Positions 34,766 through 60,178 are shown, counted from the stretch's first letter. The stretch is DNA of 64,000 nucleotides from an uncultured archaeon (GCA_964619365.1 CAZUDQ010000001.1:118503-182502); one strand, 5' to 3'. Numbers and translations: made by a program. The notes: generated by a model not told the origin, from the letters alone.

Positions 34766-34766
34766 A

Positions 34767-37050: not shown

Positions 37051-37055
37051 AAAAG

Positions 37056-37553
37056 ATGGTAAAAATCCATGAGAGTGCAGAAGTCTCAGAAAAGGCGAAA
37101 ATCGGTGAAGGAACAAGTATATGGCATCAAGCTCAAGTTCGTGAGAATGCAGTAATCGGAAAGGACTGTAATATTGGAAAGGGCGTCTATATAGACTCTG
37201 GTGTAAAAATCGGGGACGCCTGCAAAATCCAGAATTATGTTTCAGTCTATCACGGTGTTGAGATAGAAGATGACGTATTTGTCGGACCGTCGGCAACATT
37301 CACAAACGACTTTAGGCCTCGCGCATTCATCTGGAATGAAGAAAAGGTTGGGAAGACACTTGTCAAAAAAGGCGCATCAATCGGAGCGAATTCCACAATA
37401 GTCTGTGGTGTTGAGATTGGAGAATATGCTATGGTCGGTGCGGGAAGCGTTGTTACAAAAGACGTTCCACCTTTTGGGCTTGTCTATGGAAACCCTGCAA
37501 AGCTGTGCGGGAAGGTAAATAAAGAAGGTGAAGTAATTGAAAGATATGATTAA
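37056..37553 (+). CDS. wbpD: Hexapeptide-repeat (LbH) sugar N-acetyltransferase (WbpD-like)
   Basis: Repeated [LIV]G-x4 hexapeptides ([25 protein letters not shown]...). Adjacent to WbpB/WbpA homologs. Confidence 0.75.
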
Positions 37554-41004: not shown

Positions 41005-41010
41005 CTGATT

Positions 41011-42159: not shown

Positions 42160-42361
42160 ACTAACCCATAAAAAACTAAAATGATACACAAGAAAAAGGA
42201 ATTAAAAGAATGGTGTGAGGAATCCGCAATAGAATTTGGTAATATCAATGTGGAATTAGGAAAAGTTATTGTTGAATATGATAGATTGCTTAACCAAGGT
42301 AATAAAATTTGAATGGTCCTTATAAAACGTGTTTTAGTAAAAAACAATCCAAATAATAGCG

Positions 42362-43126: not shown

Positions 43127-43127
43127 A

Positions 43128-43961: not shown

Positions 43962-44090
43962 GAAAACAGACACTTTCGTCAAAAAAGGTAAAAGAAAAAT
44001 TGGGTTGGGAACCAAAATTTAGTTTCGCAGACGGTATGAAAAGGACTGTTAGTTGGTATACAGACTTCTTCTTCAAATAAACTATTAACA

Positions 44091-46115: not shown

Positions 46116-47950
46116 TGGGTGCAGTTATATTTGGTAGTTGTGGGGATAGTAAAAAACTAGAAAATCCAGGTGAAGATTTTGATTTCTATACCAAAGGTGA
46201 GATCAATATCTGGAGAAAATGCTCGCCATTCTTCTTCTCAGGCAAAATGCCAATTTTAAACAATGATGAAGATGTGGGTATAATAATACAGGGTTATGTA
46301 ATTCTAAATGAAGATATACAGGATTCTACTAAGAATTGGAAGGAAACGGCTAGTAGGCTTATTGCGGAATATGAACGAGGGGGCACCGAATCTATTTTAA
46401 ATTCTATAAAAACTGGAGCATTCAATATCATTTTATTTGATTTTAGAACGAATCTGATGTTTGTTATAAATGATAGATTTGGGTTATTCCCACTTTTTTA
46501 TCATCAAGATAAATACAATCTGGTATTTGGTACAAGGACCAAAGAAATTTTAAATATAAAAAAATTTGAACCAGATTGGACATCTATAGCAGAGTTCTTA
46601 GAATATGGGTATGTTCTCGGGGATAGAACATACTTCGAGGGGGTCAGGCTTATGGGGCCTGGATCAGTATTAAGTTACAATCTTGGTGACAAGACAATTA
46701 AAATAGAAAGTTATTGGGAAATTAATTATGATAAAAATATATCAGAAAAAGATATGGCGAGTGAAGCTCTAAGATTATTTAAAACTTCGTGCAAGCGCTT
46801 ATATACAAAAGATTATGGATACATTATACCGTTAAGCGGTGGACTTGATTCAAGGCTAAATGCGTATGGATTTTCCAATGTGGGCAAGATTACTACACTT
46901 ACCTTCGACCGGAGCAAAAGTGGCAAGGAGTATAAGATAGCAAAAAAGATTTCAGATAAAATTGGGTGTAATCATATTTTTAAAAGTATAGAATCCAAAG
47001 GTATACTTGACTCGCCAAATAATTTTTTAAGGATAACTGAGGGGTATGAAGACATGTCACTTAATTTTCTAAAGTTATACCAAGAGTTCGAGGGCAAAGT
47101 TATTGTGGATGGTTACCTTGGTGATGTAGTTTTAGGTGGAACGTATTATAGTAAATTAAAAAAGAGGCCTGGAGATATCCTAAACCAGTTTTTAGGGAAG
47201 TCTAAGGTGACCGATGGGTGTAATGGATTAAAAAAGGAACTAAATGTTTCTTTTTTCACAGAAAAGGAATTAGAAAACCTGTTTTCTAATGAAATATCTA
47301 AAAAAATAAAGGATGGGATTAATGCCCATAATGATTTCTTAACAAAAGAAATGGAAATTCTATCCAATAAATTTAAGTATAAGGAAGAGATGATTGAGTT
47401 TTTTAAGATAAATAATCGGGGCCGACGTTTTATAAATCTGGGGGGGCATTGGCAGGAGGATAAAAATGAACGCATAGTACCTTTCTTTGACTATGATTTC
47501 TTTGATTTTTGTATGAATATTCCTATTGAAGAGCGAGCCTTTCACAAAGTATATTATAAACTTCTGTCAAAAATGGATGATTTGGGTAAAATAGTTTATA
47601 ACCACAGCGGTATAAGCGCAAACTCGCCATATAAATTACAACTTATGACTGAATATTTAAATGAGATATGGCTTAAACAAAAGAAGTTTATAAATCGTCT
47701 TACAAAAGGCAGATATTGTAAACCCGATACCTATGCCCCAATAGCTGAGTGGGTTAGAGACTCTGAGAACGAAAAAACTATAATGGATTCAATGAATTGG
47801 ACTCTTATAAACAAGAGCGAAGTTGAAAGATTATTCAATGAACACAAGAATTTTACGGGGGATAATAGTAAAAAGATAGTCAGACTTTTCTCATTTTCAC
47901 TTTGGTGGGATAAAATCTATTTGAAACATTTAGAAGAACATCAAACATGA
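46112..47950 (+). CDS. Asparagine synthetase (AsnB)-like amidotransferase lacking the N-terminal Cys nucleophile
   Basis: PP-loop synthetase domain IPLSGGLDSRLNAY is conserved. The N-terminus is MMGAVIFG rather than MCGI, so the glutaminase Cys2 is absent. 612 aa. Confidence 0.7.
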   Translation: MMGAVIFGSCGDSKKLENPGEDFDFYTKGEINIWRKCSPFFFSGKMPILNNDEDVGIIIQGYVILNEDIQDSTKNWKETASRLIAEYERGGTESILNSIKTGAFNIILFDFRTNLMFVINDRFGLFPLFYHQDKYNLVFGTRTKEILNIKKFEPDWTSIAEFLEYGYVLGDRTYFEGVRLMGPGSVLSYNLGDKTIKIESYWEINYDKNISEKDMASEALRLFKTSCKRLYTKDYGYIIPLSGGLDSRLNAYGFSNVGKITTLTFDRSKSGKEYKIAKKISDKIGCNHIFKSIESKGILDSPNNFLRITEGYEDMSLNFLKLYQEFEGKVIVDGYLGDVVLGGTYYSKLKKRPGDILNQFLGKSKVTDGCNGLKKELNVSFFTEKELENLFSNEISKKIKDGINAHNDFLTKEMEILSNKFKYKEEMIEFFKINNRGRRFINLGGHWQEDKNERIVPFFDYDFFDFCMNIPIEERAFHKVYYKLLSKMDDLGKIVYNHSGISANSPYKLQLMTEYLNEIWLKQKKFINRLTKGRYCKPDTYAPIAEWVRDSENEKTIMDSMNWTLINKSEVERLFNEHKNFTGDNSKKIVRLFSFSLWWDKIYLKHLEEHQT

Positions 47951-47973
47951 TATATCCTAGCCTCTAATCAAGA

Positions 47974-49467
47974 CTATATTGAATTCGCATCAGCTTCTCC
48001 AAAGAACTTATCTTCAAGCTTAAGGAAAGAAAGGAAAAATCGCATCTCTTTTTCGCTAAATGCCTTAAGAACTCCCATGAGTGCAAAATAAAAGAGTGCT
48101 CCAATGCCACATACGAGGATTATCTCTATCCAGCCTGAAGGGGAAAACGCTAAGACAATAAATGCCATTGCAATTGACGAGATAACTGCCTTTAGAAGGA
48201 ATGGCGCACTTACTTCAAGTTTTACAAACTTCTTTGAGATTATTTGTGAGCTTATGTAAAGTCCGACAAAGGCAATAAATGTTGAAATGGCAGCACCAAT
48301 CAGTCCAAGTGTTGGTACAAGGAATAGGTTAAGTGCTATATTGAGTATTCCAAAGGCTGCAAGTAAAATAGCGTTCCAATAAACTTTTTTCTCTATGAAA
48401 AACACTGTTGAATTTATTGTAAAAAGAGATAGGAATATTGTCGAAATGGCAACAATCGGTGTCACCCACGCAGCACCTGCCAAAAACTCGTTTGTTGCCA
48501 TAGATCTTGTGAACTCAGTTGCAAGGATACTAAGACCAAATGCTGCAGGTATTGCAAGAAGCATGAAATATCGGAAACTGTAGCTTAGGTATTTCATGAC
48601 ATCTTTGCTTCTTGCCTCATCATGGGCGCGCGTGAGTGGGACAAGAAGGTTTATACGTATGGGGTTAAGAAGGATGGAGACTGATGCCCCTATTGTATAG
48701 GCTACAGAATAGACACCAACGGCTGAGGCCCCCAGGAAAAAACCTATGACGTACCTATCGCCAAGATTAAGGAGGTTTGATGAAAAGCTTCCTGCAACCA
48801 TTGGAAAACCAAACTTGACATACTCAAGAGACTGTCTGATGCTTGGTACGGAAGGACCAAAGGTCTTACATACTGCAAGTACACAAAAAATCAGAACTGA
48901 AAGTTGGACTACAATAAAGGACATTACAACCTCATATAAACCCATTCCAAAAAGCAAGAAAATTGATGCCAGTAAAAGAGGACCAAGACTATAGATTATA
49001 AGAAGCGTCGAATAACTGCCCATGCGGCGTTTTATGCGGAATGACTCAAGGAAAGGAGTTAATGGTGCTTGAACTATGAGTAGAATCGCTCCAAGTTGTA
49101 TCACTGCCGTTGCGTCTGGTGCTCCAAAGACCGTATTTGCCAAAAAACTAGCTGAAAAAAATAATACAAGAGCTCCAATAAAAGACATCAATAATGAAAA
49201 GGTTCCGGCAGAGAATATCCCCTTTGAAATCTTCTTTTTGTCATTTTCAGATGACAGCATGCGTATAACACCATAGTTGGAACCCAGATTTATAAATGGC
49301 TGGATAAACGCCAAGGTTACAATAAGGGTTGAATAAACGCCGTACCCTGCCACGCCAAGATAAAGAGTAAGTATCGGAAGAAAGATTATTGGCCTAAGGC
49401 GCATTACTGCCTCTGATATCGCGACTATTCCGACATCCTTTGTAAATTTCTTATATTTGTCACTCAT
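47974..49467 (-). CDS. Wzx/AglR-type oligosaccharide flippase (MOP superfamily, Polysacc_synt)
   Basis: 497 aa with ~14 predicted TM helices. Polysaccharide-biosynthesis flippase-like N-terminus. Located in the glycan locus. Confidence 0.75.
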   Translation of the reverse strand: MSDKYKKFTKDVGIVAISEAVMRLRPIIFLPILTLYLGVAGYGVYSTLIVTLAFIQPFINLGSNYGVIRMLSSENDKKKISKGIFSAGTFSLLMSFIGALVLFFSASFLANTVFGAPDATAVIQLGAILLIVQAPLTPFLESFRIKRRMGSYSTLLIIYSLGPLLLASIFLLFGMGLYEVVMSFIVVQLSVLIFCVLAVCKTFGPSVPSIRQSLEYVKFGFPMVAGSFSSNLLNLGDRYVIGFFLGASAVGVYSVAYTIGASVSILLNPIRINLLVPLTRAHDEARSKDVMKYLSYSFRYFMLLAIPAAFGLSILATEFTRSMATNEFLAGAAWVTPIVAISTIFLSLFTINSTVFFIEKKVYWNAILLAAFGILNIALNLFLVPTLGLIGAAISTFIAFVGLYISSQIISKKFVKLEVSAPFLLKAVISSIAMAFIVLAFSPSGWIEIILVCGIGALFYFALMGVLKAFSEKEMRFFLSFLKLEDKFFGEADANSI

Positions 49468-50369
49468 TGTCTACAGAGTTCCTTAATACCCAGTTCCAGT
49501 GGGGTTTTTGGTTCCCATAAAAGTTCTTTTTTCGCTTTTGAAATATCTGCATGTGAATGCAATATATCTCCTAGTCTAGGCGGCTCAAATGTTATTTTTG
49601 AATTTGATTCACGAGCTAGGACTATTATTTCGGCAAGCTCAAGAACACTTATAGGCGTTCCAGAGGCTATGTTATAAACTCCGGTTTTTCCGACTGCGGC
49701 TACGTTCGCGCGCGCGACATCGCGCGCGTTGACAAAATCGCGCGTTGCCGTGCCATCACCATATATCACGAGAGGCTCTTTTGTTTTTGCGCGTTCTATG
49801 AATTTTGGAATGACTGCGGCATAATCTGATTTTGGATTCTGACGCGCACCATAAACATTAAAATATCTTAGAGAGACACAATTAATACCATAAAGGGAGG
49901 AATATTCCTGCATTAATTCTTCGCCATCAAGCTTGCTCTGTGCATATGGACTCATGGGAAAGGTCTTTGAATCCTCTTTTTTAGGAAGTCCTGGCAAGTC
50001 GCCATAAACAGCTGAGGACGATGCGAAAACTACGTTTTTTGTTCCTGAAGAACGCGCGGCCTCAAGAACGTTTTTTGTGCCTTCAACATTTATCTTATAG
50101 CAAAGATCAGGTTCTGCAATGCTTTGGGGTACACTTGCCATTGCCGCTTCATGGAATACCGTTTCAATGCCCCTAAAAGAGTCTAAAAGGTTTTGCTTGT
50201 CGGTTATATCGCCTTTTACTAGTTCGATGCCCAATGTTTGGAGGAATTGCTTTGAGGGGTTGCCGGGCGCGCTAAGATTATCGAGCACCCTTACTTCCTT
50301 AGAGTCAGAAACCAAGTGTTCTGCTATATGGCTTCCAATAAAGCCCGCACCACCAGTTACAAGATACAT
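49464..50369 (-). CDS. NAD-dependent nucleotide-sugar epimerase (UDP-Glc/GlcNAc 4-epimerase-like SDR)
   Basis: MYLVTGGAGFIGSHIAEHL, YAQSK catalytic motif, 301 aa. Confidence 0.8.
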   Translation of the reverse strand: MYLVTGGAGFIGSHIAEHLVSDSKEVRVLDNLSAPGNPSKQFLQTLGIELVKGDITDKQNLLDSFRGIETVFHEAAMASVPQSIAEPDLCYKINVEGTKNVLEAARSSGTKNVVFASSSAVYGDLPGLPKKEDSKTFPMSPYAQSKLDGEELMQEYSSLYGINCVSLRYFNVYGARQNPKSDYAAVIPKFIERAKTKEPLVIYGDGTATRDFVNARDVARANVAAVGKTGVYNIASGTPISVLELAEIIVLARESNSKITFEPPRLGDILHSHADISKAKKELLWEPKTPLELGIKELCRQ

Positions 50370-50428
50370 TTCCCTTTATTTTTAGTGCCTAGACAAATAA
50401 ACCCGCCAGTCTGTGCTTATTAAAAAGG

Positions 50429-51385
50429 TCAGAATGGGGCGTAAAGAAGAATCGCCAGAAGGACAAACGGTATTTCCATAAGTCCGAAATACTCAACAAG
50501 ACGCTTTTCTGAGATTGGTCCAAACTTTTTTATCATGATTTGTGCAAGACCTACTGGTTTTCCTGGACATGTAAGCTTGCCCCCCTTTGGCGTGCCCCAC
50601 CAGCCTGTTGTTGGAAAGCCGTTTTTTGCCTTTATGACAAAATCCACTATGTATGGAATCATCACGACGACAAGAGCAATCTCAAAGTGTCCTAAGATGC
50701 CCGCACATGCGATTGTAGCGCCAATCATGAGTGTTCCTACATCTCCCATAAAGACTCGCGCTGGATGCTTGTTAAAGCACATAAAGGCTATAAGTGCGCC
50801 AGAGAGCGCAAGGAGTAGTGCTATTGATGCTAAACTGCCTGACCATATCGCAAGAGGTAAGAGTCCAAAAGAGATTATTATCCCTAGACCCGCCTCCATT
50901 CCATTAAAGCCTGCAAACATGTTTGTGAGATTTGCCATTACAGTAACGCCAAGCGGGACAAGAACCAAAGGATAGATTATCGGTAAAGAAACAATACCCA
51001 CAAAGGGCACAAGAAACTCTGGTGAGGATATCGCAAAAAGCGCTATTGGTATTGCTGCAATGACTGGAAGAACCGTCTTTACAGAGTGTCTTATTGAAAA
51101 AAGGTCGTCAATAAGGCCGATAAAGGAAGCAAGAATTGCAGTAAGCGCCCCCGCAATCAATCCAGAATAAAGTCCTGCCGGCGCAACAAAAACAAAAAAA
51201 GCTATTGCGAGGGCAAATCCAAATACAATAGAAAGTCCGCCTATCTCGGCAAGCTCTGGGTGGCCTTCTTTGTTTACATCTTTTCCTACGCGCCCTGCTG
51301 CCTTTAAACGTGGTATTATAAGTGGCAGTAAGGCAAATGTGCCCACAAAGGCTACTAGAAAGGTTCCAAATAGAAGAACTGACAT
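50429..51385 (-). CDS. aglH: UDP-GlcNAc:dolichyl-phosphate GlcNAc-1-phosphate transferase (AglH / GPT / MraY-WecA superfamily)
   Basis: Polytopic membrane protein with NMFAGFNG and FMGDVGTLMIGA signatures of polyprenyl-phosphate HexNAc-1-P transferases. Confidence 0.8.
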   Translation of the reverse strand: MSVLLFGTFLVAFVGTFALLPLIIPRLKAAGRVGKDVNKEGHPELAEIGGLSIVFGFALAIAFFVFVAPAGLYSGLIAGALTAILASFIGLIDDLFSIRHSVKTVLPVIAAIPIALFAISSPEFLVPFVGIVSLPIIYPLVLVPLGVTVMANLTNMFAGFNGMEAGLGIIISFGLLPLAIWSGSLASIALLLALSGALIAFMCFNKHPARVFMGDVGTLMIGATIACAGILGHFEIALVVVMIPYIVDFVIKAKNGFPTTGWWGTPKGGKLTCPGKPVGLAQIMIKKFGPISEKRLVEYFGLMEIPFVLLAILLYAPF

Positions 51386-51399
51386 TTTAGTCTTATTTC

Positions 51400-54300
51400 T
51401 TATTGTATGCGGCTTTTACAGAACTCATCTGTTCCAACACAATAGAAAGTCACATCAACCAGACCTGCAAGATCAGATTTTAACTGCTCGACAATCTCCC
51501 TTTGGATTTCGCAGCTCGCATCACATTCTTCCGTGTAGAAAGCTTCGATTACGGTTTTGCCATCACTTAAGCAGGACTCGCTATCTAACATCTTAAGTGC
51601 CGCAACGTATTCTTCGAGTTCCTTATTTAGTGTGAGTTTTTCTGTTTTGTTGTCATGGGCCACCCCTATTGTCGAACAAAGCTCTTTTGGCTCGCCGTTT
51701 GTTGCAATACATGTGAACGCAGCAAGGACGCCACCTTCGGGCCCTACGATGCCTTCTTTTGCAAAGCGACAGTCCCAGACTACTGCAGGGAAGGTAGAAA
51801 GGTTGTATTCTTTGGCCTTTGCATTGCCGTTGGCATCAAACTTCATCTCAAGCTCCTCCTTATAAGCGTCTGCGACCTTGTCACCTATTGAAACTAGCGT
51901 TACTTCAAAATGAAGTGTTTCATTCTGGAGCGGGTGTCCTTCTGATGCACCATAAGCTTCTTCTGGCGGGAGCGTTAGGTTCTTTGTCTCACCAAGCTTC
52001 ATGTCATTTACTCCAGCGTCAAACCCTGCAATCATCTGTCCGGCACCGATAGTAAACTCAAGAGGTGACCCCCCTATTGAAGACTCAAAGACTGTACCGT
52101 CATCAAGAGTACCTGTGTAATGCACCTTTACTAAAGAGCCTTCTCTTGCAAGGTTCGGGTCAACTGAAAAAAGCCCTTCTTCTGAAACTAGAGGCTCTGA
52201 AATATCTTCTGAACCTGGGACAGGGACCTTATCCGGATAATTTATCCTAAATATTTTAACATTTGGGTACGCGCCGTTTACTGCATCTGCATCAGTCACA
52301 AGTTCGTAATACTCAAGGTCTCTTGCATCTTTGACATAAAGCTCAAAGAACATGGAGTCGCTCCAGCGCTCTGGAGCATGTATGAGTAACTGCGAATCAA
52401 GCCGTGCTAGTTCATCTTTGCCTAAAGAAAGAACGTCGTTTAAGGGAACGCGCTCGCAGTTCTCAGATATCAGGAACTCTCCTGTTGAGCCGTCTGCATA
52501 TTCAAATAGGAGTATGCCACCATAGGCATTTCCATCAGCAAAAGGAAGTCCTCCCGAATTTATCGCGTAAAGCTGGCTTTGTGTTATTGTCTTTCTTTCT
52601 CCATTTTCGACAAGGAATGTCGTCTTAGATGAAGTTGTATATTCCGGGCGGCATATATATTGCCCTTCTTTTGCAAGAGAATATTGGTTAAAGACAGGAT
52701 ATCCTGCTGAGCGGGTAACATGCCCTGTGCCGTTTTCCTCGCGGGCAACGTGCCAGTCAAGAGTCATGTCGCAACATTCTGTTGGCTGCTCTTGGCAACA
52801 CTTTTTGTCAACAACTTTAGTCAAAGCATCGCGCAGGCAGACAATTCCGGAGTCGCATGAGTAAGTTCCATCCTCACTCTTCTTTGCACGCTCTCCTGTT
52901 TCTATATTCTGGCAGACAAACCCTTGGTCGCATGTGCCATTGGAATTTGTCATAAAGCCATTTTGATACTCATAGAAGTTTGTGCCGAGGAACGTGAGTG
53001 CTCCTGCTTTTCCAACAAGTGAATAGTCAAGGATTATATATTTTGTCTTTAAGTCCTTGTTCCAGGGCTGCTCCATTAGCCACTTTGTCGCGGCGTCTTC
53101 GCCACTTTCATTATAGAAGAACCTTGCCGTGCGCATTATGTATTCTTCATTTGCCTGCGTAGGCTCGGTGATTACAGTCGTGTCTGAAAGCGCAGTTATA
53201 ATGTGGCCGTAATCCCACCATGTAAAGACATAATCCCCCGGAACATACGTTCCGTCAATAAACTGGCCGTTTTCTACATTATTTGAAAGCCACTCTATAC
53301 CTGTGACCCATGCCGGGTCGATTGAAGGCGTTCTTGCCGCATAGCCCCAGGAATATGCCGGAGACATCGGCGCGAAGACAAAAATTGCAATAAGTGGGAT
53401 TATTACTATTGGAAGAATAACATTTATCTTTGAAAATTCTGTTCTGTCCTTGGGGAAGAATATTCCGACTAAGGAACCTAAGAGAAGGAAACCAAGTGAC
53501 TGAGAGAATCCAAGTCTTGCCTCACCCCATACAAAGACCATAGCAACTATAAAGAACATAAGGGTTATACAGTAGGCAAGAAGATAGTTATAAAATTTCT
53601 CTTTTTCCTGTTTAAGAAACCAGTAGATTAGCGTTACTGGAAGTAGTATTAGCATAAAGAGTGAAAGACCTTCTGCGATGCCGTAATAATCAAGACCTAC
53701 ATTAAGCTTCTGAGCTATTGAACCTGACGCAAGAGCACCCTGCTCTGAAATAGTCTTTTCGACAAGGAAATTTCTTGTGCCTTCTCCAGCTATGTTGCTG
53801 TAAAGAGAAGATACTGAATTGACTATGTTTGATGGGCCATAATAAACAAGAGCCCCTATTGCCACAACCAGTATGACAACAAAAAGAGGCAACAAGAACT
53901 TCTTTTCAATCGGTTTTTTGGAGTCTTCTTTTTCCTTAAAGAAGTATACTCTTGATACTTCAGAAAGTACTGCAAAAAGAGCGAAGAACCCGAATGAGCC
54001 TATATAGAATATTGAAGGTAAGCCTCCTCCGATTGCAGTTATCCCGCAAAGCGAGACTATTCCTGCGATAAGTCCTGCGCGCGTTATTTTCCACATGTCA
54101 TAACGTCCGATTATTGTAAAGACTGCGAATATGCCAAGTGCGACAAACGGGACTGCATATAAGAACTGTGCACCCCCTGACCAGGTTATGGCAAGCATCA
54201 TAAGTGTGATTCCAGACAATGCGGCAAAAATGACTGAATCACGCGTGCGCTCAACCTTAAATGACTTGGTAAGAAGATAGAAGGCAAAAACTGCTATTGC

Positions 54301-55098
54301 CATACCCATTATATCTTCTTCTATGGCGCCAGCCGTTGACTTTGTAAGAATCATTGGCATTGTTGCAAAGAGGAAGCCTGCTATAACGCCTGTCTTCCAG
54401 TCGCCTGAAAGCTCTTTCATAAAGAAATAAATCATAATTGCGGCAAACGCTGAAATCAAAAGCGGATACAAGATTATTGCCTGCTCAATTCCGATTCCTG
54501 AAGTAAATGCCAGGAACGCATTGTAATAATAAGGCAGGAGTTGACTACCCACTAACCCATAGGGTGGGTTTACGCGGTAATCGGTCGCCAGAATTTCGCC
54601 GTTTTGGTAAAGATCGTGGGTGAATTTATAGTGGTAATACGGGTCGTCCATAGAAATCGGATTTCCAGCCATCGTTCCTTCCATTGCAGGATATGCTCTG
54701 AAACAAACGGCTGTTGCGACAAGAAAGATTATGATTGTCATCTGCAAGCCCAGCTTCTTTGAGACAAGAAGGAGCGCAAGGAGAGTATATACTGCAAAAA
54801 GGAGTATCAAAAGAGGGTTAGCTCCCGTAAACACCGCAATTGCGGCAAGAATTGCTGTTAAGAATATAATGAGATTTGAAAGGTCGCCTTCATAGGGGCC
54901 AATGTTTGTGACTGTCAATATAAGTCCCGCGACAGCAATGACTGCGCAGACTAGGCCCAGAATGATTTGAAATGGTGCAAAAATCGCCCATATGACAAGG
55001 CAGGCAAGAAGCCCCGCAGCAAACAAATAGTGTATAGGCATCCCAGATATACTTGAGATATCTAGAGTCTTTGCCGTTGTTTCGTTTTTTGAGACCAT
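51400..55098 (-). CDS. aglB: AglB/STT3 oligosaccharyltransferase fused to a C-terminal FKBP-type peptidyl-prolyl isomerase domain and a terminal 8-Cys domain (1232 aa)
   Basis: About 17 TM helices, then the WWDYGH catalytic motif (DNA ~53207-53224). Downstream is an FKBP domain VKVHYTGTLDDGTVFESSIGGSPLEFTIGAGQMIAGFDAGVNDMKLGE...LHFEVTLVSI (DNA ~51880-52150). After that comes a ~150-aa domain with 8 Cys. Confidence 0.85.
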   Translation of the reverse strand: MVSKNETTAKTLDISSISGMPIHYLFAAGLLACLVIWAIFAPFQIILGLVCAVIAVAGLILTVTNIGPYEGDLSNLIIFLTAILAAIAVFTGANPLLILLFAVYTLLALLLVSKKLGLQMTIIIFLVATAVCFRAYPAMEGTMAGNPISMDDPYYHYKFTHDLYQNGEILATDYRVNPPYGLVGSQLLPYYYNAFLAFTSGIGIEQAIILYPLLISAFAAIMIYFFMKELSGDWKTGVIAGFLFATMPMILTKSTAGAIEEDIMGMAIAVFAFYLLTKSFKVERTRDSVIFAALSGITLMMLAITWSGGAQFLYAVPFVALGIFAVFTIIGRYDMWKITRAGLIAGIVSLCGITAIGGGLPSIFYIGSFGFFALFAVLSEVSRVYFFKEKEDSKKPIEKKFLLPLFVVILVVAIGALVYYGPSNIVNSVSSLYSNIAGEGTRNFLVEKTISEQGALASGSIAQKLNVGLDYYGIAEGLSLFMLILLPVTLIYWFLKQEKEKFYNYLLAYCITLMFFIVAMVFVWGEARLGFSQSLGFLLLGSLVGIFFPKDRTEFSKINVILPIVIIPLIAIFVFAPMSPAYSWGYAARTPSIDPAWVTGIEWLSNNVENGQFIDGTYVPGDYVFTWWDYGHIITALSDTTVITEPTQANEEYIMRTARFFYNESGEDAATKWLMEQPWNKDLKTKYIILDYSLVGKAGALTFLGTNFYEYQNGFMTNSNGTCDQGFVCQNIETGERAKKSEDGTYSCDSGIVCLRDALTKVVDKKCCQEQPTECCDMTLDWHVAREENGTGHVTRSAGYPVFNQYSLAKEGQYICRPEYTTSSKTTFLVENGERKTITQSQLYAINSGGLPFADGNAYGGILLFEYADGSTGEFLISENCERVPLNDVLSLGKDELARLDSQLLIHAPERWSDSMFFELYVKDARDLEYYELVTDADAVNGAYPNVKIFRINYPDKVPVPGSEDISEPLVSEEGLFSVDPNLAREGSLVKVHYTGTLDDGTVFESSIGGSPLEFTIGAGQMIAGFDAGVNDMKLGETKNLTLPPEEAYGASEGHPLQNETLHFEVTLVSIGDKVADAYKEELEMKFDANGNAKAKEYNLSTFPAVVWDCRFAKEGIVGPEGGVLAAFTCIATNGEPKELCSTIGVAHDNKTEKLTLNKELEEYVAALKMLDSESCLSDGKTVIEAFYTEECDASCEIQREIVEQLKSDLAGLVDVTFYCVGTDEFCKSRIQ

Positions 55099-55119
55099 TT
55101 TATTAAGCTTAAGTTCTTT

Positions 55120-55746
55120 TTACAATAGTTCTGAGAGGTCGAAAATCACTTCGTCTGGATCAGCCTCTTTTGCCACGTCATTGCGCCCGTTAAGCTTAAG
55201 CACTGTATGGCATCCGGCAGCCCTGCCTGCGATTATATCGTACTCTGTATCGCCGATAAATATTGCCTCTTCTGGTTTTACACCAAGCACGGACAATGCT
55301 TTTTCGACTGGTTCTTTGTGTGGTTTTTTGAACTCTGCGTCCTCTTCCCCCACAATTGCGTCAAAAAAGTGCAGGATACCGACTTCGGCTAAGGTCTTTT
55401 CAATCACCCCTCTTGGAGACGTTGAAACGACTGCGAGTTTGCAGTTCCTGTCTTTTAACGACTGTAATGTTTCTGTTATGTTCTTAAAAATCTTAATCTG
55501 CGGTATACCCTCTATCCATACCTCTTTAAAGTCTTCTCTTATCTTTTCTTTTTCGGGGTCTGAAAGGCCGCCAACAAGACGAGGAAGGGTCTCATCTACG
55601 GATTTTCCGAAAAGCTCGCGGGAGAATTCATCTTCAGAGAGTTCCCTTTTGCCATTTAACCTTAATGCAGCGTTAAATGACTCGTGAATATTTTGAAAGG
55701 TGTCGACAAGTGTGCCGTCCATATCAAAAAGAAAAGCTTTATACAT
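55120..55746 (-). CDS. HAD-superfamily hydrolase (phosphoglycolate phosphatase / beta-PGM-like subfamily IA)
   Basis: FLFDMDGTLVDT motif I, STS motif II, GDTEYDI motif IV. Confidence 0.7.
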   Translation of the reverse strand: MYKAFLFDMDGTLVDTFQNIHESFNAALRLNGKRELSEDEFSRELFGKSVDETLPRLVGGLSDPEKEKIREDFKEVWIEGIPQIKIFKNITETLQSLKDRNCKLAVVSTSPRGVIEKTLAEVGILHFFDAIVGEEDAEFKKPHKEPVEKALSVLGVKPEEAIFIGDTEYDIIAGRAAGCHTVLKLNGRNDVAKEADPDEVIFDLSELL

Positions 55747-55805
55747 ATTGCCTCACAAATTTAGCGGCTTATTAGAAGACGTTATTATAAAAGTCAAAGA
55801 ATACC

Positions 55806-57566
55806 ATGAGAATCGCTGTTATTGACAGGGAAAAGTGCAGGAAAGACATCTGTGGGTTTTTGTGTCAGCGTATGTGTCCACGCGTTAGAAGCGGGGATGA
55901 GACGATAATTGCTGATGAAGAGGACGAAACGGGTCGCCCCCTTATAATCGAAAGCCTTTGTGTTGGCTGTGGGATATGTGTCAATAAATGCCCGTTTGGC
56001 GCAATAACTATAACAAATACGCCTGAAGCAGCTGGCGTCCTCACACACCAGTATGGACAAAATGGATTCAGGCTTTTTGGATTGCCAGGTCCACGAGAGG
56101 GAAGTGTTGTTGGTATTCTTGGTGTTAATGGAATAGGTAAATCTACTGCCATAAAGATTCTGTCAAGGCAAGAAGACGCCAATATGGGAAATCTTGAAAA
56201 GACTCCCGAGTGGAGAGAGATTATCGAAGCCTTCCGTGGAAATGAAGTGCAGGCATATCTTGAAAAACTCGCTTCAGGCGCTGCAAAAACTGCATATAAG
56301 CCACAGTATGTTGATATTCTGACAAAGATGCCAGGAACCGTTAAAGACGCCCTTTCAAAGGTATCTAAGGACTATTTGATTGTCGCAAAGGAGCTTGAGC
56401 TTGAAAATATTCTTAGTCGGAAGTTAAAGAATTTATCGGGGGGGGAGCTTCAGCGCGTTGCGATTGCCGTTGCAATGCTTAGGGACGTTGACCTTTACTT
56501 CTTTGACGAGCCAACCTCGTTTCTTGACATATCTCAAAGGCTAAAAGTCGCAAAGAGGATTCGGGCTCTAGCTAAAACCGGAAAAAGTGTTGTTGCCGTA
56601 GAGCACGATTTGATTATCCTTGACTACCTATCCGACTACATCAATATCGCTTTTGGTGAGAAAGGTGCTTTTGGAGTCCTCTCAAAATTAAAAAACACCC
56701 GCGTCGGGATAAACGAATTCTTATCAGGAAAACTTCGCACAGAAAACGTCAGGATTAGGGACTACCCCATACACTATGAGGTAACTGGTGCCAATAAGTT
56801 TTCCGGGGGTGAACTCATGTGTAAGTTCCCAAAGGTCGTTAAGGACTTTGGGGAATTCTCTTTTGAAGCAGAAGCCGGGGAGATACATGCTGGAACAATA
56901 ACTGGCATCCTGGGTCCAAATGCGACTGGAAAGACTACCTTCATGAAGATTCTTACTGGCGCACTGAAAAATGACGGGGAGGATATTGATTTGACTCTTG
57001 ATATTTCATACAAACCTCAATATATCGAGGCCACGCCAGGTACTGTACGGGATGTCCTTAAAGCGGCAACACCCGACCTTTATAAGTCTCATTACAAAAC
57101 TGAAGTTCTTGAACCTATGGGCCTTGAACCGTTCCTTGACCGGGAATTAGGAGAACTCTCTGGAGGAGAGCTTCAGCGTGTAGCGATTGCCGAATGTATC
57201 TCCAGAGATGCTGACATCTATTTCCTTGACGAGCCTTCAGCATACCTTGATGTTGAACAAAGGCTTATTGCGGCGCGTATGATAAGACGCAGAATGGAAA
57301 ACTCACGTAAAAGTGCTATTGTAATCGACCACGACATAGGCTTTATAGATTACATATCAGACAGGATAATGGTCTTTTCCGGAGAGCCAGGAATGCGCGG
57401 CTTTGCAAGTACGCCCAAAGGAATGCGCGCCGGGATGAATGAGTTCCTTAAGCTTATGGAAATAACTTTCAGGCGGGATGAAGAAACAAAACGCCCGAGG
57501 GCAAATAAGCTGGACAGCCAGAAGGACAAAGAACAACGCGCCAAAGGCGAATATTATTATAATTAG
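55806..57566 (+). CDS. abcE1: ABCE1 (RNase L inhibitor / ribosome recycling ATPase): N-terminal 4Fe-4S ferredoxin domains plus twin ABC cassettes
   Basis: CVGCGICVNKCPFGAI Fe-S motif. Two Walker A (GVNGIGKST, GPNATGKTT) and two LSGGELQRVAIA signatures. Confidence 0.9.
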   Translation: MRIAVIDREKCRKDICGFLCQRMCPRVRSGDETIIADEEDETGRPLIIESLCVGCGICVNKCPFGAITITNTPEAAGVLTHQYGQNGFRLFGLPGPREGSVVGILGVNGIGKSTAIKILSRQEDANMGNLEKTPEWREIIEAFRGNEVQAYLEKLASGAAKTAYKPQYVDILTKMPGTVKDALSKVSKDYLIVAKELELENILSRKLKNLSGGELQRVAIAVAMLRDVDLYFFDEPTSFLDISQRLKVAKRIRALAKTGKSVVAVEHDLIILDYLSDYINIAFGEKGAFGVLSKLKNTRVGINEFLSGKLRTENVRIRDYPIHYEVTGANKFSGGELMCKFPKVVKDFGEFSFEAEAGEIHAGTITGILGPNATGKTTFMKILTGALKNDGEDIDLTLDISYKPQYIEATPGTVRDVLKAATPDLYKSHYKTEVLEPMGLEPFLDRELGELSGGELQRVAIAECISRDADIYFLDEPSAYLDVEQRLIAARMIRRRMENSRKSAIVIDHDIGFIDYISDRIMVFSGEPGMRGFASTPKGMRAGMNEFLKLMEITFRRDEETKRPRANKLDSQKDKEQRAKGEYYYN

Positions 57567-57570
57567 TTCA

Positions 57571-57590
57571 ACCCTCGGATGTGCGAGGGT
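57571..57590. terminator. Perfect 7-bp stem / 6-nt loop hairpin between convergent abcE1 and rps27ae
   Basis: accctcg-gatgtg-cgagggt lies 5 nt after the ABCE1 stop and ~37 nt before the S27ae stop on the opposite strand. Confidence 0.4.
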
Positions 57591-57626
57591 CGTACTTAAA
57601 ATCTGTTTATAAATTTCCTTAGAAGA

Positions 57627-57824
57627 TTATTCCTTCTTTGGTATGGATTTTTTCTCCATATACCCGCAGCGTCCGCAGGCTATACGGTCTTTATGTTCTG
57701 CAAGGAATACACCAGGTCCACACTTAGGACAAAACTTGTTTTTCTTTTTGATAGCGTCTCCCTCAATCTCATAGACTTTCCACTTCTGTGAAACTTTCTT
57801 TTTCTTTGTTTCTTTTGCTGCCAT
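57627..57824 (-). CDS. rps27ae: 30S ribosomal protein S27ae (eS31)
   Basis: C4 zinc finger CPKCGPGVFLAEHKDRIACGRCGY in a 65-aa basic protein. Confidence 0.8.
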   Translation of the reverse strand: MAAKETKKKKVSQKWKVYEIEGDAIKKKNKFCPKCGPGVFLAEHKDRIACGRCGYMEKKSIPKKE

Positions 57825-57834
57825 TTTATTCTTA

Positions 57835-58368
57835 TTATTCTGCCTTTGGCTCTTCTACTGGAGCTTCAGGGGCTACTGCTTCTGGAGCGGGAGTTGGTGC
57901 AGGGGTTTCTTCTTTTGGAGCTTCCTGTGCAGGCTCTTTTGGAGCGGCTTCTGCAGGGGATTTTGCTGCTGGCTCTTCTACTGGAGCTTCAGGGGCTGCT
58001 GCCTCTGGCGCTGGTGCTTCTGGCGCTGGTGCGGGAGATTCTTCTTTTGGAGCAGGAGTTGGTGCAGGGGTTTCTTCTTTTGGGGCTTCTGGCTCTTTTG
58101 TGCGCTTAGCATGATATCCAAGTTCTATTTTGTCCATTATCTCCTTAGACTCATAAATTCTAGCCGTTCCTTTTGTCAGGTTAGACCCTGTTTGCTGGTC
58201 CACCTTAGTGATTACGGTTAGTTCCGGCTTTCCTTTTGCGGCCTTTGCAACGGCGTCTTTTATTACCGTGCGCGCTGGCGTTACTTTTTCTACTACTGAG
58301 AATTCAATCTCTTTCCTGCCAAAACAGGGATTGGTCTCATTTTTGATTATCTCGATATTCATTTTCAA
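57835..58368 (-). CDS. rps24e: 30S ribosomal protein S24e with a ~80-aa Pro/Ala/Glu-rich C-terminal extension
   Basis: The N-terminal ~100 aa (MKMNIEIIKNETNPCFGRKEIEFSV...YHAKRTK) match S24e. The tail is PEAPKEETPAPTPAPKEESPAPAPEAPAPEAAAPEAPVEEP... with internal DNA duplications. Confidence 0.75.
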   Translation of the reverse strand: MKMNIEIIKNETNPCFGRKEIEFSVVEKVTPARTVIKDAVAKAAKGKPELTVITKVDQQTGSNLTKGTARIYESKEIMDKIELGYHAKRTKEPEAPKEETPAPTPAPKEESPAPAPEAPAPEAAAPEAPVEEPAAKSPAEAAPKEPAQEAPKEETPAPTPAPEAVAPEAPVEEPKAE

Positions 58369-59860: not shown

Positions 59861-60178
59861 TTAAAACTCGGGCGGATTTATCCCAACAAGGGTTATTTCA
59901 AAGATTAGAGTCTTGCCTGCCATGGGGTGCGGTCCGCTTGTCCCGTAGGCTTTTTCGGGGGGCAATTCTGCAGTCTTTGACTCGCCAAGTCCCATGCCAA
60001 GAACAGCTTCTTCAAAACCAGGTATCATCTGCCCTGCGCCAAGCTCGAAAACAAGAGGGTCACGCCCCTGGCTTGAATCAAATACTTCACCGTCAGTAAA
60101 CTTACCTGTGTAGTCGACCTCAACAATATCACCTTTCTTTGCGATTTCGTCCATTTTATTTGTTGGCGATATTTCCAA
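59861..60178 (-). CDS. FKBP-type peptidyl-prolyl cis-trans isomerase (short SlyD/FKBP12-like, 105 aa)
   Basis: VDYTGKFTDGEVFDSS...FELGAGQMIPGFEEAVLGM...LIFEITLVGI. Confidence 0.8.
   Translation of the reverse strand: MEISPTNKMDEIAKKGDIVEVDYTGKFTDGEVFDSSQGRDPLVFELGAGQMIPGFEEAVLGMGLGESKTAELPPEKAYGTSGPHPMAGKTLIFEITLVGINPPEF

What the first reader, a model, noticed from the sequence alone, without database searches (positions are those of the whole stretch)
51400..55098. AglB oligosaccharyltransferase fused to an extracytoplasmic FKBP prolyl isomerase and an 8-Cys C-terminal domain
The 1232-aa protein has the STT3/AglB polytopic core with WWDYG. In the same reading frame, after the usual external domain, it has a complete FKBP-type PPIase domain with the conserved Y/F/D/I/W/Y/F pocket pattern, then a ~150-aa domain containing 8 cysteines (CRF..., FTCIATNGEPKELC, SESCLSDG, EECDASCE, FYCVGTDEFC). 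Because the AglB C-terminal domain is outside the membrane, this would place a folding catalyst and a probable disulfide-bonded or redox module at the site of N-glycosylation. That is functionally reminiscent of the thioredoxin-like Ost3/Ost6 (TUSC3/MagT1) subunits of eukaryotic OST, which hold substrates in a glycosylation-competent state. I do not know of a characterized AglB with a fused PPIase.
Basis: partly seen in the sequence, partly recalled or inferred. Interest (0 to 1): 0.8.

Follow-up and report, generated by a model that had tools for sequence, protein, structure and literature searches.

The report
Archaeal glycosylation enzyme with built-in folding helpers
One archaeal gene encodes the enzyme that attaches sugars to secreted proteins, joined on its outer side to a proline-isomerase domain and a rearranged thioredoxin/DsbA-like domain; this resembles the separate helper subunits of the eukaryotic enzyme, but nobody has yet tested what these domains do.

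Summary
Window 51400..55098 (-) is one 1232-aa ORF. It contains an STT3/AglB core (WWDYG 627-631, TIxE 449-452), a complete FKBP domain (984-1069, Pfam E 2e-25) and a 148-aa tail with 8 invariant cysteines. No hydrophobic segment follows TM13 (558-576), so about 650 residues lie on the catalytic (outer) side.

The fusion is not an assembly artefact. Two other metagenome assemblies carry the same ORF at 99.3-99.5% nucleotide identity. At least 13 orthologues (38-45% identical, syntenic, probably Altiarchaeota) share the architecture.

New findings:
- The tail has the cis-Pro loop (P1104) and an active-site pair at the start of helix alpha-1. This pair is CxxC in 12 of 14 orthologues but CxxxC (CDASC) in this window.
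- The thioredoxin-like (Trx-like) tail is universal in the clade. FKBP is missing in two lineages and degenerate in one.
- A further 10 invariant cysteines sit in an insertion in the external domain.
- Ca. Altarchaeum AglBs also carry DsbA-like tails.

Function is inferred, not shown. I found no publication describing this. I rate it a new variant of a known kind.

The parts
51400..55098 (-). Whole gene: AglB-FKBP-permuted thioredoxin-like fusion, 1232 aa plus stop codon
   Evidence: ORF. Domains. Orthologues with the same order. Two independent assemblies.
54739..55098 (-). N-terminal extension (residues 1-120) with extra hydrophobic helices ahead of the STT3 core
   Evidence: Hydropathy segments at 45-63 and 95-113. 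Poorly conserved in alignment A1. The Pfam STT3 match starts at residue 149.
53371..54738 (-). STT3/AglB membrane core (residues 121-576), TM1-TM13 with external loops EL1 and EL5
   Evidence: PF02516 at 149-523. Hydropathy and positive-inside pattern. The invariant motifs SMDDPYYHYK 149-158, E260 and KTISEQ 448-453.
54625..54654 (-). EL1 acidic motif SMDDPYYHYK (residues 149-158)
   Evidence: Invariant in 6 of 6 sequences. Its correspondence to the first acidic catalytic motif of STT3 is from my own knowledge.
53740..53757 (-). EL5 motif KTISEQ (residues 448-453), containing TIxE
   Evidence: Invariant in 6 of 6 sequences.
53206..53220 (-). WWDYG catalytic motif (residues 627-631)
   Evidence: invariant. 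STT3-PglB_core PF21436 matches 621-658 at E 3e-4.
52954..53370 (-). External central core (residues 577-715), including the DK-like segment ILDYSLVGKAGAL (D691...K697)
   Evidence: Alignment A1. Local HMM 'WWDYGcore'.
52408..52953 (-). Cysteine-rich insertion in the external domain (residues 716-897): 10 invariant Cys, arranged Cx5C, Cx5C, CCx6CC and two more
   Evidence: No Pfam hit. The AF2 model is unreliable here, with pLDDT 24-31. Other Altiarchaeota AglBs have a median of 4 Cys after WWDYG.
52219..52407 (-). Return to the AglB external core (residues 898-960, ...HAPERW..MF.ELY..DA..L.Y...YP.VKI..I.YP)
   Evidence: This is the only part of the 716-960 region that also matches ordinary Altiarchaeota AglBs: L027, L034 and L053 at HMM positions 183-250.
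51892..52149 (-). FKBP-type PPIase domain (residues 984-1069), short FKBP12-like form without an insert-in-flap domain
   Evidence: PF00254 at E 2.1e-25. PDB FKBPs at E 1e-29 to 1e-12. 38% identical to human FKBP12. Pocket table.
51403..51846 (-). Circularly permuted thioredoxin/DsbA-like domain (residues 1085-1232) with 8 invariant Cys
51787..51789 (-). P1104, in the position of the thioredoxin-fold cis-proline (FPAVVW, just before strand beta-3)
   Evidence: Invariant in all members that hold this half. Aligned to the Pro of 'AVPTIVING' in 1fo5. A strand starts right after it in the model.
51511..51525 (-). C1192-D-A-S-C1196: active-site position at the N-terminus of helix alpha-1. It is CxxxC here and CxxC in 12 of 14 orthologues.
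   Evidence: The helix at domain residues 106-125 starts at this motif, after the strand at 97-104.
59861..60154 (-). Stand-alone 97-aa FKBP paralogue with no signal peptide or TM, probably the source lineage of the fused domain
   Evidence: 54% identical to the fused copy. It is 62-69% identical to the fused FKBPs of other species. A stand-alone FKBP sits at the same syntenic position in L003 and L082.
50429..51385 (-). Family-4 glycosyltransferase (AglH-like polyprenyl-phosphate HexNAc-1-P transferase), 14 nt downstream of aglB
   Evidence: PF00953 at E 1e-32. Conserved next to aglB in L001-L006, L080-L083.
55120..55746 (-). HAD-family hydrolase, 21 nt upstream of aglB on the same strand
   Evidence: PF13419 at E 1e-43. 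Conserved synteny.

Best explanation
This is the N-glycosylation oligosaccharyltransferase (OST), AglB, of an uncultivated archaeon that is probably related to Altiarchaeota. The external C-terminal region of the enzyme has been extended within the same polypeptide. The extension comprises a 10-Cys insertion, an FKBP-type prolyl isomerase domain, and a naturally circularly permuted thioredoxin/DsbA-like domain. All of them sit on the outer face of the cytoplasmic membrane, beside the WWDYG catalytic site. Proposed mechanism: OSTs can only modify sequons in unfolded, flexible polypeptide. The tethered modules would bind newly exported, still unfolded and cysteine-rich surface proteins. The thioredoxin-like module would act through its cysteine pair by transient mixed disulfides or by disulfide formation or reshuffling. 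The FKBP would bind chains and isomerise prolines. Together they would keep acceptor sites accessible and couple glycosylation to folding, as the separate Ost3/Ost6 (TUSC3/MagT1) subunits do in eukaryotic OST. What is shown here: the single ORF, the identity of each domain, the permutation, conservation of the pocket and cysteine residues, the lack of any TM after residue 576, and conservation across lineages. What is inferred: the outside location (from STT3 topology), catalytic activity of either module, and any action on OST substrates.
Against: There is no functional evidence of any kind. This window's own motif is CDASC (CxxxC), as in L005, which is not a standard thioredoxin active site. 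The dipeptide inside CxxC varies freely among orthologues (CPVC, CSGC, CPEC, CEQC, CADC and others), unlike tightly tuned oxidoreductase families. FKBP was lost in two lineages and has decayed in P0012, so it is dispensable. No Pfam thioredoxin family reaches its threshold on the domain. Foldseek against PDB found nothing significant. I found no re-oxidising or reducing partner (DsbB, VKOR, CcdA) among the window ORFs I scanned. I had no model coordinates, so I could not check whether the modules face the catalytic site. The organism is probably an anaerobe (my own knowledge of Altiarchaeota), where extracellular disulfide chemistry is less expected.
Confidence: 0.5

Rival explanations
1. AglB serves only as a membrane anchor. 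The FKBP and thioredoxin-like domains are general extracytoplasmic folding catalysts, like bacterial FkpA, PrsA and DsbA. They are fused to an abundant membrane protein for convenience and have no functional link to glycosylation.
For: The same permuted domain occurs in many proteins that have only a single N-terminal TM anchor and no OST: P0014-P0029, P0035, P0041 and others. A membrane tether of any kind therefore seems sufficient. FKBP is facultative.
Against: The fusion to AglB specifically is kept in all 14 members of the clade. Ca. Altarchaeum AglBs reach a similar arrangement with a differently built DsbA-like tail. Recurrent association with the OST argues for functional coupling. The co-acquired 10-Cys insertion in the OST domain also points to an integrated unit.
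Confidence: 0.2
2. The modules serve the enzyme itself. They would act as intramolecular chaperones or stabilisers that fold and maintain the unusually cysteine-rich external domain of this AglB (18 Cys), or simply as rigid disulfide-bonded structural domains.
For: Exactly 18 Cys lie after WWDYG in 12 of 14 members, against a median of 4 in other Altiarchaeota AglBs. The Cys-rich insertion and the thioredoxin-like tail therefore appeared together. Six of the eight tail cysteines behave as structural, being kept even when the CxxC is lost. The CxxxC in the window suggests the redox role is relaxed.
Against: FKBP pocket residues and both active-site cysteines remain under purifying selection in nearly all fused copies, which is not needed for a purely structural role. 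Dedicated single-turnover intramolecular foldases of this size are unusual.
Confidence: 0.15
3. The thioredoxin-like domain is redox-inert and works as a recognition or holding module for unfolded polypeptide, like the non-catalytic thioredoxin-like domains of UGGT or the b domains of PDI. FKBP would likewise act as a binding module.
Against: All 14 AglB-fused copies keep both cysteines even though relatives show that the fold tolerates their loss. This reading overlaps with the main explanation, since holding substrates is part of it.
Confidence: 0.12
4. The long ORF is an assembly or frameshift artefact that joins aglB to neighbouring FKBP and Cys-protein genes.
For: None was found. The window does hold a separate FKBP gene 5 kb away.
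Against: Three independent assemblies give the same ORF. Thirteen orthologues at about 40% identity keep the same order in one frame.
Confidence: 0.01

Closest known systems
Archaeal AglB / STT3 oligosaccharyltransferase (solved examples: Archaeoglobus fulgidus and Pyrococcus furiosus AglB; these are from my own knowledge and were not retrieved here)
   Same: It has a polytopic STT3 core (PF02516), WWDYG, TIxE in EL5, an acidic EL1 motif and an external C-terminal globular region. The gene sits in an agl-type glycan cluster next to a GT4 initiating transferase.
   Different: About 600 residues follow WWDYG, against about 300 in its nearest Altiarchaeota relatives. The external domain carries a 10-Cys insertion, an FKBP domain and a permuted thioredoxin-like domain. 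It scores far below the TIGR04154 archaeosortase-associated subfamily cut-off, 94.8 against 450 bits.
Ost3/Ost6 (yeast) and TUSC3/MagT1 (mammals): thioredoxin-fold subunits of eukaryotic OST
   Same: A thioredoxin-fold domain with a cysteine pair is held on the lumenal or external side, next to the STT3 catalytic subunit. The proposed role is to keep cysteine-containing acceptor segments glycosylation-competent (PMC4137057 for MagT1).
   Different: Here the domain is fused to the catalytic subunit rather than being a separate 4-TM subunit. It has circularly permuted strand order and six extra cysteines. There is no PF04756 match. The window copy has CxxxC. It is most simply read as convergent, not orthologous.
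DsbA and small archaeal thioredoxins (Mj0307, PDB 1fo5; Mt0807, 1nho); engineered circularly permuted DsbA (PDB 1un2)
   Different: The order is naturally permuted, with the cis-Pro half first. It has three presumed extra disulfides. It falls below every Pfam thioredoxin-family threshold. It is attached to an OST.
Extracytoplasmic FKBPs of bacteria (FkpA, Mip) and ER FKBPs (FKBP2/FKBP13)
   Same: It is an FKBP12-like catalytic domain outside the cytoplasm. The best NCBIfam FKBP match is the FkpA-type model PRK10902. ER FKBP2 (2pbc) is among the PDB hits.
   Different: It has no dimerisation or N-terminal chaperone domain. It is embedded between two other domains of an OST. It is most similar (54-69%) to the organism's own small cytoplasmic FKBP, from which it probably arose by duplication.
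AglBs of Ca. Altarchaeum spp. (L044, L048, L049), found here
   Same: They are Altiarchaeota AglBs with long cysteine-rich external tails that end in a thioredoxin/DsbA-like domain with CxxC. L048 and L049 show the DSBA C-part before the Thioredoxin_4 N-part.
   Different: They have no FKBP. They carry Dickkopf_N-like cysteine repeats and 24-28 Cys. The tails are not alignable with the window's tail by my HMM. L044 has the canonical order.

Membership tests
STT3/AglB oligosaccharyltransferase | Match to the STT3 family profile above the curated threshold | tested here: met
   PF02516 scores 51.2 bits against a cut-off of 24.5, at residues 149-523.
STT3/AglB oligosaccharyltransferase | WWDYG motif at the start of the external domain | tested here: met
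   W627-G631, invariant in A1.
STT3/AglB oligosaccharyltransferase | Acidic catalytic motifs in EL1 and EL2, and TIxE in EL5 | tested here: met
   D151-D152 in SMDDPYYHYK, E260 (AIEED) and T449-I-S-E452 are all invariant. Assigning them to the catalytic motifs is by analogy from my own knowledge.
STT3/AglB oligosaccharyltransferase | 13-TM core with the C-terminal domain on the non-cytoplasmic side | tested here: met
   Hydropathy and K/R distribution fit TM1-13, with long EL1 (134-207) and EL5 (420-476). Nothing after 576 is hydrophobic enough to span the membrane. This is a prediction only.
STT3/AglB oligosaccharyltransferase | DK or MI motif (DxxK...) in the external core | tested here: inconclusive
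   D691 and K697 in ILDYSLVGKAGAL are invariant, but the spacing is DxxxxxK, not the canonical DxxK that I recall.
STT3/AglB oligosaccharyltransferase | Transfers lipid-linked glycan to Asn-X-Ser/Thr | not testable with these tools
   Only the gene context supports this: GT4, flippase, glycosyltransferases and sugar-modifying enzymes.
TIGR04154 archaeo_STT3 (archaeosortase A-associated subfamily) | Score at or above the subfamily cut-off | tested here: not met
   94.8 bits against a cut-off of 450.
FKBP-type PPIase | FKBP_C domain profile match | tested here: met
   PF00254 scores 89.3 bits against 21.1 and covers profile positions 5-94 of 94. PDB FKBPs match at E 1e-29.
FKBP-type PPIase | Hydrophobic pocket residues (FKBP12 Y26, F36, D37, I56, W59, Y82, F99) | tested here: met
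   Y994, F1004, E1005, I1023, F1026, Y1049 and F1064. D to E and W to F are conservative changes, and F59 occurs in FKBP12.6 (my own knowledge). The pocket is conserved in 11 of 12 aligned fused copies (P0013 has F36Q).
FKBP-type PPIase | Prolyl isomerase activity or FK506 binding | not testable with these tools
   Needs a biochemical assay.
Thioredoxin-fold thiol-disulfide oxidoreductase (DsbA / thioredoxin-like) | Thioredoxin fold | tested here: met
Thioredoxin-fold thiol-disulfide oxidoreductase (DsbA / thioredoxin-like) | Canonical order: beta1, CxxC, alpha1, beta2, then cis-Pro, beta3, beta4, alpha3 | tested here: not met
   The two halves are in swapped order, a natural circular permutation. 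Canonical-order relatives exist in the same sequence family.
Thioredoxin-fold thiol-disulfide oxidoreductase (DsbA / thioredoxin-like) | CxxC at the N-terminus of helix alpha-1 | tested here: not met
   The window has C1192-DAS-C1196, a CxxxC. Twelve of 14 AglB-fused orthologues have CxxC, and L005 also has CxxxC. The position at the helix start is right.
Thioredoxin-fold thiol-disulfide oxidoreductase (DsbA / thioredoxin-like) | Conserved cis-proline loop before beta-3 | tested here: met
   P1104 is invariant and aligned with the loop proline of 1fo5. The cis conformation itself could not be tested.
Thioredoxin-fold thiol-disulfide oxidoreductase (DsbA / thioredoxin-like) | Match to a curated thioredoxin or DsbA family profile above threshold | tested here: not met
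   There is no Pfam hit on the native domain. After de-permutation the best single-sequence E-value is 0.009, below threshold.
Thioredoxin-fold thiol-disulfide oxidoreductase (DsbA / thioredoxin-like) | Redox activity of the cysteine pair | not testable with these tools
   Needs redox-potential measurement, an insulin-reduction assay and mixed-disulfide trapping.
OST3/OST6 (TUSC3/MagT1) family | PF04756 profile match, with an N-terminal thioredoxin domain followed by four TM helices | tested here: not met
   PF04756 is not among the hits for the whole protein at E up to 0.01. No TM follows the domain. The resemblance is functional analogy only.

The most novel reading that the evidence does not exclude
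A single-polypeptide 'mini OST complex': in one archaeal phylum with a double membrane, the catalytic STT3 homologue has repeatedly captured a DsbA-like oxidoreductase, and here also a PPIase. Its cysteine pair would form transient mixed disulfides with incoming cysteine-rich surface proteins, to keep cysteine-proximal sequons accessible. That would be a convergent, in-cis counterpart of eukaryotic Ost3/Ost6/MagT1, built on a naturally circularly permuted thioredoxin fold.
Probability: 0.33. Interest if true: 0.85.

Novelty: new variant of a known kind. Interest (0 to 1): 0.7.

Why it matters
Archaeal and bacterial OSTs are treated as single-subunit enzymes with no folding accessories. Coupling glycosylation to oxidative folding through a thioredoxin-like partner is regarded as a feature of the eukaryotic multi-subunit OST. 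Here the catalytic subunit carries an equivalent module, plus a prolyl isomerase, in the same chain. The arrangement is conserved over at least 14 divergent lineages. Other Altiarchaeota AglBs show a similar arrangement with differently built DsbA-like tails. If the modules act on acceptor proteins, this would be an independent evolutionary answer to the same problem, namely glycosylating sequons before the substrate folds or oxidises. It would also be a compact, genetically simple system for testing that coupling. It further defines a natural circular permutation of the thioredoxin/DsbA fold with canonical and permuted forms in one family, a sizeable unannotated family of membrane-anchored archaeal proteins, and evidence for extracytoplasmic thiol chemistry in a phylum known for a periplasm-like compartment (PMC6098224). 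Practically, a self-contained OST with a built-in chaperone could be useful for glyco-engineering.

Tried and rejected
1. The search for homologous proteins with the 11-sequence tail alignment returned nothing. This looks like a limit of its word index, because the exhaustive HMMER search with a 6-sequence profile then found 118 relatives.
3. Looking up the window protein by exact sequence failed. The recorded protein differs by S848W. The look-up with P0001 worked.
4. AF2 on residues 577-975 (the external core plus the 10-Cys insertion) gave pLDDT 49.9, and 24-31 over the insertion. It is too poor for a fold search, so the fold of the insertion stays unknown.
5. Foldseek of the tail model against PDB gave no hit below E 0.06. 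I attribute this to the permutation, since sequence-order-dependent aligners are penalised by it, but it remains a negative result.
6. The afdb50 library was not available.
7. Pfam on the native tail and on the 716-960 region gave only noise. De-permuted tails gave only sub-threshold thioredoxin-family hits.
8. Rfam found nothing in the window.
9. Seven literature searches found no description of an AglB fused to FKBP or to a thioredoxin/DsbA domain, or of a permuted archaeal thioredoxin. The library is incomplete, so this is not proof of absence.
10. I considered a misassembled gene fusion and rejected it (and the orthologues).
11. I considered all eight Cys forming a metal or Fe-S site. This is unlikely, because relatives lose the CxxC pair while keeping the other six Cys.
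12. I considered membership of Ost3/Ost6 and rejected it, as there is no PF04756 match.
13. The organism could not be named. The best clue is that one orthologous MAG is labelled Ca. Altiarchaeota, and that the next-closest AglBs are almost all from Altiarchaeota.

Full report

Yes. One search lists one ATG-started ORF at 51400..55098 on the minus strand. Pfam finds STT3 (PF02516, residues 149-523, 51.2 bits against a cut-off of 24.5). It also finds a sub-threshold STT3/PglB core match over WWDYG (621-658) and a full-length FKBP_C domain (PF00254, 984-1069, profile 5-94 of 94, E 2.1e-25). PDB FKBPs match at E 1e-29 to 1e-12. Cysteines after residue 1085 are at 1110, 1130, 1141, 1176, 1192, 1196, 1220 and 1227.

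The single frame is not an assembly accident. Two independent metagenome assemblies are 99.3-99.5% identical to window 49474-58071. They are ENA ERZ27315536 contig k141_439977 and JGI 3300005915 Ga0075122_10005893. Both encode the same 1232-aa product apart from S848W. Five database proteins at 38-43% identity have the same domain order in one frame, as do six MAG loci at 40-45% and three further full-length proteins.

**2. Corrections to the description**

- Aligned to human FKBP12, the pocket of this copy is Y994, F1004, E1005, I1023, F1026, Y1049, H1055, F1064. D37 is therefore E and W59 is F. Most orthologues have D at 37, and all have F at 59.
- 'EECDASCE' is CxxxC. Twelve of 14 orthologues have CxxC at that place.

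**3. AglB identity and topology**

The motifs SMDDPYYHYK (149-158), E260, KTISEQ (448-453, containing TIxE) and WWDYG (627-631) are invariant in the six-sequence alignment.

Hydropathy gives helices that fit the 13-TM STT3 core:
- long, K/R-poor loops at 134-207 (EL1) and 420-476 (EL5);
- short, K/R-rich loops at 277-287, 331-341, 388-400, 496-505 and 548-557;
- a last helix at 558-576.

After residue 600 the highest 19-residue hydropathy is 1.19, which is not a membrane span. Established STT3/PglB/AglB structures (my own knowledge) place EL1, EL5 and WWDYG on the non-cytoplasmic face. On that basis, all of residues 577-1232 lie outside.

An independent hint comes from sequons. Two positions inside the FKBP domain are conserved in 5 of 6 fused copies: about residue 1000 (NGT) and 1059 (N[KE]T). 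The small stand-alone FKBP paralogues read DGE and GKT at these positions.

The gene lies in a tight minus-strand run of HAD hydrolase, aglB, GT4 (AglH-like), epimerase and Wzx-like flippase. This run ends a sugar-biosynthesis cluster at about 33.7-50.4 kb. The cluster encodes a DegT aminotransferase, PIG-L deacetylase, ATP-grasp, acetyltransferase, UDP-sugar dehydrogenase, two GT1, a nucleotidyltransferase, epimerases, GT2 and an AsnB-like amidotransferase. The protein scores far below the TIGR04154 subfamily cut-off.

**4. What the 8-Cys domain is**

Pfam finds nothing on it. An AF2 model built from six orthologues is confident (pLDDT 83.6, pTM 0.78). In domain numbering (protein residue minus 1084) it shows:
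- helix 7-13, then P20, then strands 21-24 and 28-31, then helix 38-48;
- later, strand 97-104, the cysteine pair (108/112) at the start of a long helix 106-125, strand 130-136 and helix 140-147.

These are the two halves of a thioredoxin fold in reversed order. Four lines of evidence agree.

- **Profile against PDB sequences.** An 11-sequence profile hits M. jannaschii thioredoxin 1fo5 at E 5.6e-5, in two stretches. Query 100-138 aligns to chain 3-41 (strand, CxxC, helix, strand). Query 7-37 aligns to chain 45-75 (the cis-Pro loop 'AVPTIVING'). When I swapped the halves in silico, the two stretches became collinear.
- **Exhaustive HMMER search.** It found 118 relatives. Some are ordinary-order proteins of about 170-250 aa, in which the CxxC half precedes the cis-Pro half (P0036, P0039, P0044 and others). 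Others are TM-anchored proteins with the same permuted order as here (P0035, P0041 and others). The two groups share near-identical motifs, for example GKVKVIVFHSPTCPYCEAQ...YACT...DDILC against GKVKLYVFHSPTCPFCEQQ...YVCT...DDVRLC.
- **Pfam on relatives.** In P0041 the DSBA C-terminal part lies at 50-106, ahead of the Thioredoxin_2/Thioredoxin_4 N-terminal part at 162-188.

Foldseek against PDB found nothing significant. I attribute this to the permutation, but record it as negative evidence.

The pattern of cysteine retention separates two classes. Stand-alone relatives can have CxxC, CxxS, SxxC or SxxS while still keeping the other six cysteines. The six are therefore probably three structural disulfides, and the pair is a separable functional site. 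All 14 AglB-fused copies keep both cysteines of the pair. P1104 is invariant wherever that half is present.

**5. Distribution and evolution**

The genome-collection scan found full-length relatives in only six species-level MAGs. One is labelled Ca. Altiarchaeota and the rest 'uncultured archaeon'. The next-best AglBs (22-27% identity, matching only up to about residue 750) are almost all Altiarchaeota. Gene order around aglB is conserved with L001, L003, L006 and L082. It runs H+-PPase, small FKBP, RpoE, DUF359, S24e, RLI, HAD, aglB and GT4.

Local HMMs show the Cys-rich insertion and the thioredoxin-like tail in all six MAG loci. L004 and L005 lack FKBP, which is replaced by an acidic or polar linker of about 45 aa. 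In P0012 the FKBP has lost the I56 segment and the AYG motif. A rough NJ tree of the core places FKBP-containing forms on both basal branches. That suggests one gain followed by losses, but the tree is only indicative.

The window holds a stand-alone 97-aa FKBP (59861-60154, minus strand) with no signal or TM. It is 54% identical to the fused copy and 62-69% identical to the fused FKBPs of other species. The fused domain therefore probably arose by duplication of this neighbour.

Members of the clade have about 540-640 residues after WWDYG. Twelve of 14 have exactly 18 cysteines there. Other Altiarchaeota AglBs have about 300 residues and a median of 4 cysteines.

The AglBs of Ca. Altarchaeum (L044, L048, L049) also have long tails, with 24-28 Cys. 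These tails carry Dickkopf-like cysteine repeats and end in thioredoxin/DsbA-like domains. L048 scores 29.9 bits on Thioredoxin_4 (above threshold) and L049 scores 27.9 bits on DSBA, again with the DSBA C-part first. L044 has a canonical-order TCPHC...GIPQF domain. An OST-plus-thioredoxin-fold fusion is therefore a recurring theme in this phylum and has been built more than once.

**6. How it most likely works**

Shown:
- the domain identities and the domain order;
- the conserved pocket and cysteine residues;
- the absence of any TM after residue 576;
- the recurrence of the fusion.

Inferred: the tail modules lie outside the membrane, next to the catalytic site, and act on the polypeptides that AglB glycosylates. 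OSTs need an unfolded, flexible sequon. A tethered PPIase or holdase, together with a thiol-disulfide module, could keep exported cysteine-rich proteins open and then pass them on to folding. One possible client is encoded in this window: a 1630-aa LamG-repeat protein with a pilin-like signal peptide and 52 Cys. This would parallel MagT1/TUSC3 and Ost3/Ost6 in eukaryotes (PMC4137057). Ca. Altiarchaeum has two membranes and a periplasm-like space (PMC6098224), which would give such chemistry a compartment.

Weak points:
- there are no functional data;
- the window copy has CxxxC;
- the CxxC dipeptide is not conserved;
- FKBP is dispensable in some lineages;
- no redox partner was identified;
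- I could not inspect how the domains pack.

Rivals:
- the modules are general folding catalysts that merely use AglB as an anchor;
- they fold or stabilise the enzyme's own 18-Cys external region;
- they are redox-inert recognition modules, like those of UGGT.

**7. Comparison with known systems, and novelty**

It is a member of STT3/AglB and contains a bona fide FKBP_C domain. The tail has a thioredoxin fold but fails three membership features of classical DsbA or thioredoxin families: canonical order, CxxC in this copy, and curated profile thresholds. It is not an Ost3/Ost6 family member, so the resemblance is functional analogy.

Databases already hold these proteins with automatic STT3 and FKBP_C domain labels, and one is named 'Stt3' by JGI. 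None of the seven literature searches found a description of the fusion, the permuted domain or the Altiarchaeum DsbA-like tails.

I rate it a new variant of a known kind, interest 0.7.

Noticed in passing
window 52408-52953 (-), protein residues 716-897: There is a 10-cysteine insertion (Cx5C, Cx5C, CCx6CC and two more) in the AglB external domain. It is invariant across the clade, has no Pfam match and has no reliable AF2 model. It appears together with the thioredoxin-like tail; ordinary Altiarchaeota AglBs have a median of 4 Cys after WWDYG.
   Followed up: partly
window 59861-60154 (-): This is a stand-alone 97-aa FKBP with no signal peptide or TM. It is 54% identical to the fused FKBP and 62-69% identical to the fused FKBPs of other species, and a stand-alone FKBP occupies a conserved syntenic position (between H+-PPase and RpoE) in L003 and L082. 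It is the likely donor lineage of the fused domain.
   Followed up: yes
L048:7983-11963 (+), L049:7653-11618 (+), L044:7992-11702 (+): The AglBs of Ca. Altarchaeum spp. have tails of 480-570 aa after WWDYG with 24-28 Cys. The tails hold Dickkopf_N-like cysteine repeats followed by DSBA/Thioredoxin_4-type domains with CPGC or CPHC. L048 and L049 show the permuted order; L044 shows the canonical order. This looks like a separate build of an OST-thioredoxin-fold fusion.
   Followed up: partly
proteins P0014-P0029 (350-470 aa) and P0035, P0041, P0047, P0058 and others (200-250 aa): This is a sizeable unannotated family of proteins with one N-terminal TM anchor and the same permuted 8-Cys thioredoxin-like domain at the C-terminus. 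The longer ones carry an extra domain of about 200 aa with no Pfam match. Some have CxxS or SxxS instead of CxxC. I did not determine their taxonomy or gene context.
   Followed up: partly
window 51892-52149 (-), residues about 1000 and 1059; alignment A1 columns 1186 and 1245: N-glycosylation sequons inside the FKBP domain (NGT, N[KE]T) are conserved in most fused copies but absent from the stand-alone cytoplasmic paralogues (DGE, GKT). A sequon N[MI][TS] also opens the thioredoxin-like domain in 5 of 6 orthologues, though not in the window copy. This suggests the enzyme glycosylates its own tail.
   Followed up: partly
window 675-5567 (-): This 1630-aa protein has four Laminin_G_3 (ConA-like) domains, an N-terminus resembling an archaeal class III (pilin-like) signal peptide (MKDKAQTSLEYLLIIVVVLG...) and 52 cysteines. 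It is a candidate disulfide-rich surface client.
   Followed up: partly
window about 33700-50400, both strands: A large glycan-biosynthesis cluster leads up to aglB. It includes a DegT aminotransferase, PIG-L deacetylase, ATP-grasp, PHP, hexapeptide acetyltransferase, GFO oxidoreductase, UDP-sugar dehydrogenase, two GT1, a nucleotidyltransferase, two epimerases, GT2, an AsnB-like amidotransferase and a Wzx-like flippase. The 40-48 kb part has markedly lower GC (33-37% against about 44%), which may reflect horizontal exchange of the glycan-specific genes.
   Followed up: partly
L039:16464-17813 (+): About 6 kb downstream of a non-fused Altiarchaeota-type AglB lies a 450-aa protein. It has a signal peptide, a thioredoxin-like domain (SSSCPHC) and a C-terminal multi-TM region with a 'DGFNPCAF' motif that resembles CcdA/DsbD-type thiol transporters. 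It could be a redox partner system in related archaea.
   Followed up: no
window residue 848 of the AglB (nt 52555-52557): The window encodes Ser here, whereas the database protein P0001 (two other assemblies) has Trp. This is the only amino-acid difference in 1232 residues.
   Followed up: no
window 19087-20481 (+): A 464-aa protein has only a modest Tubulin/FtsZ-family GTPase match (E 6e-17). It may be a divergent FtsZ or tubulin-like paralogue.
   Followed up: no
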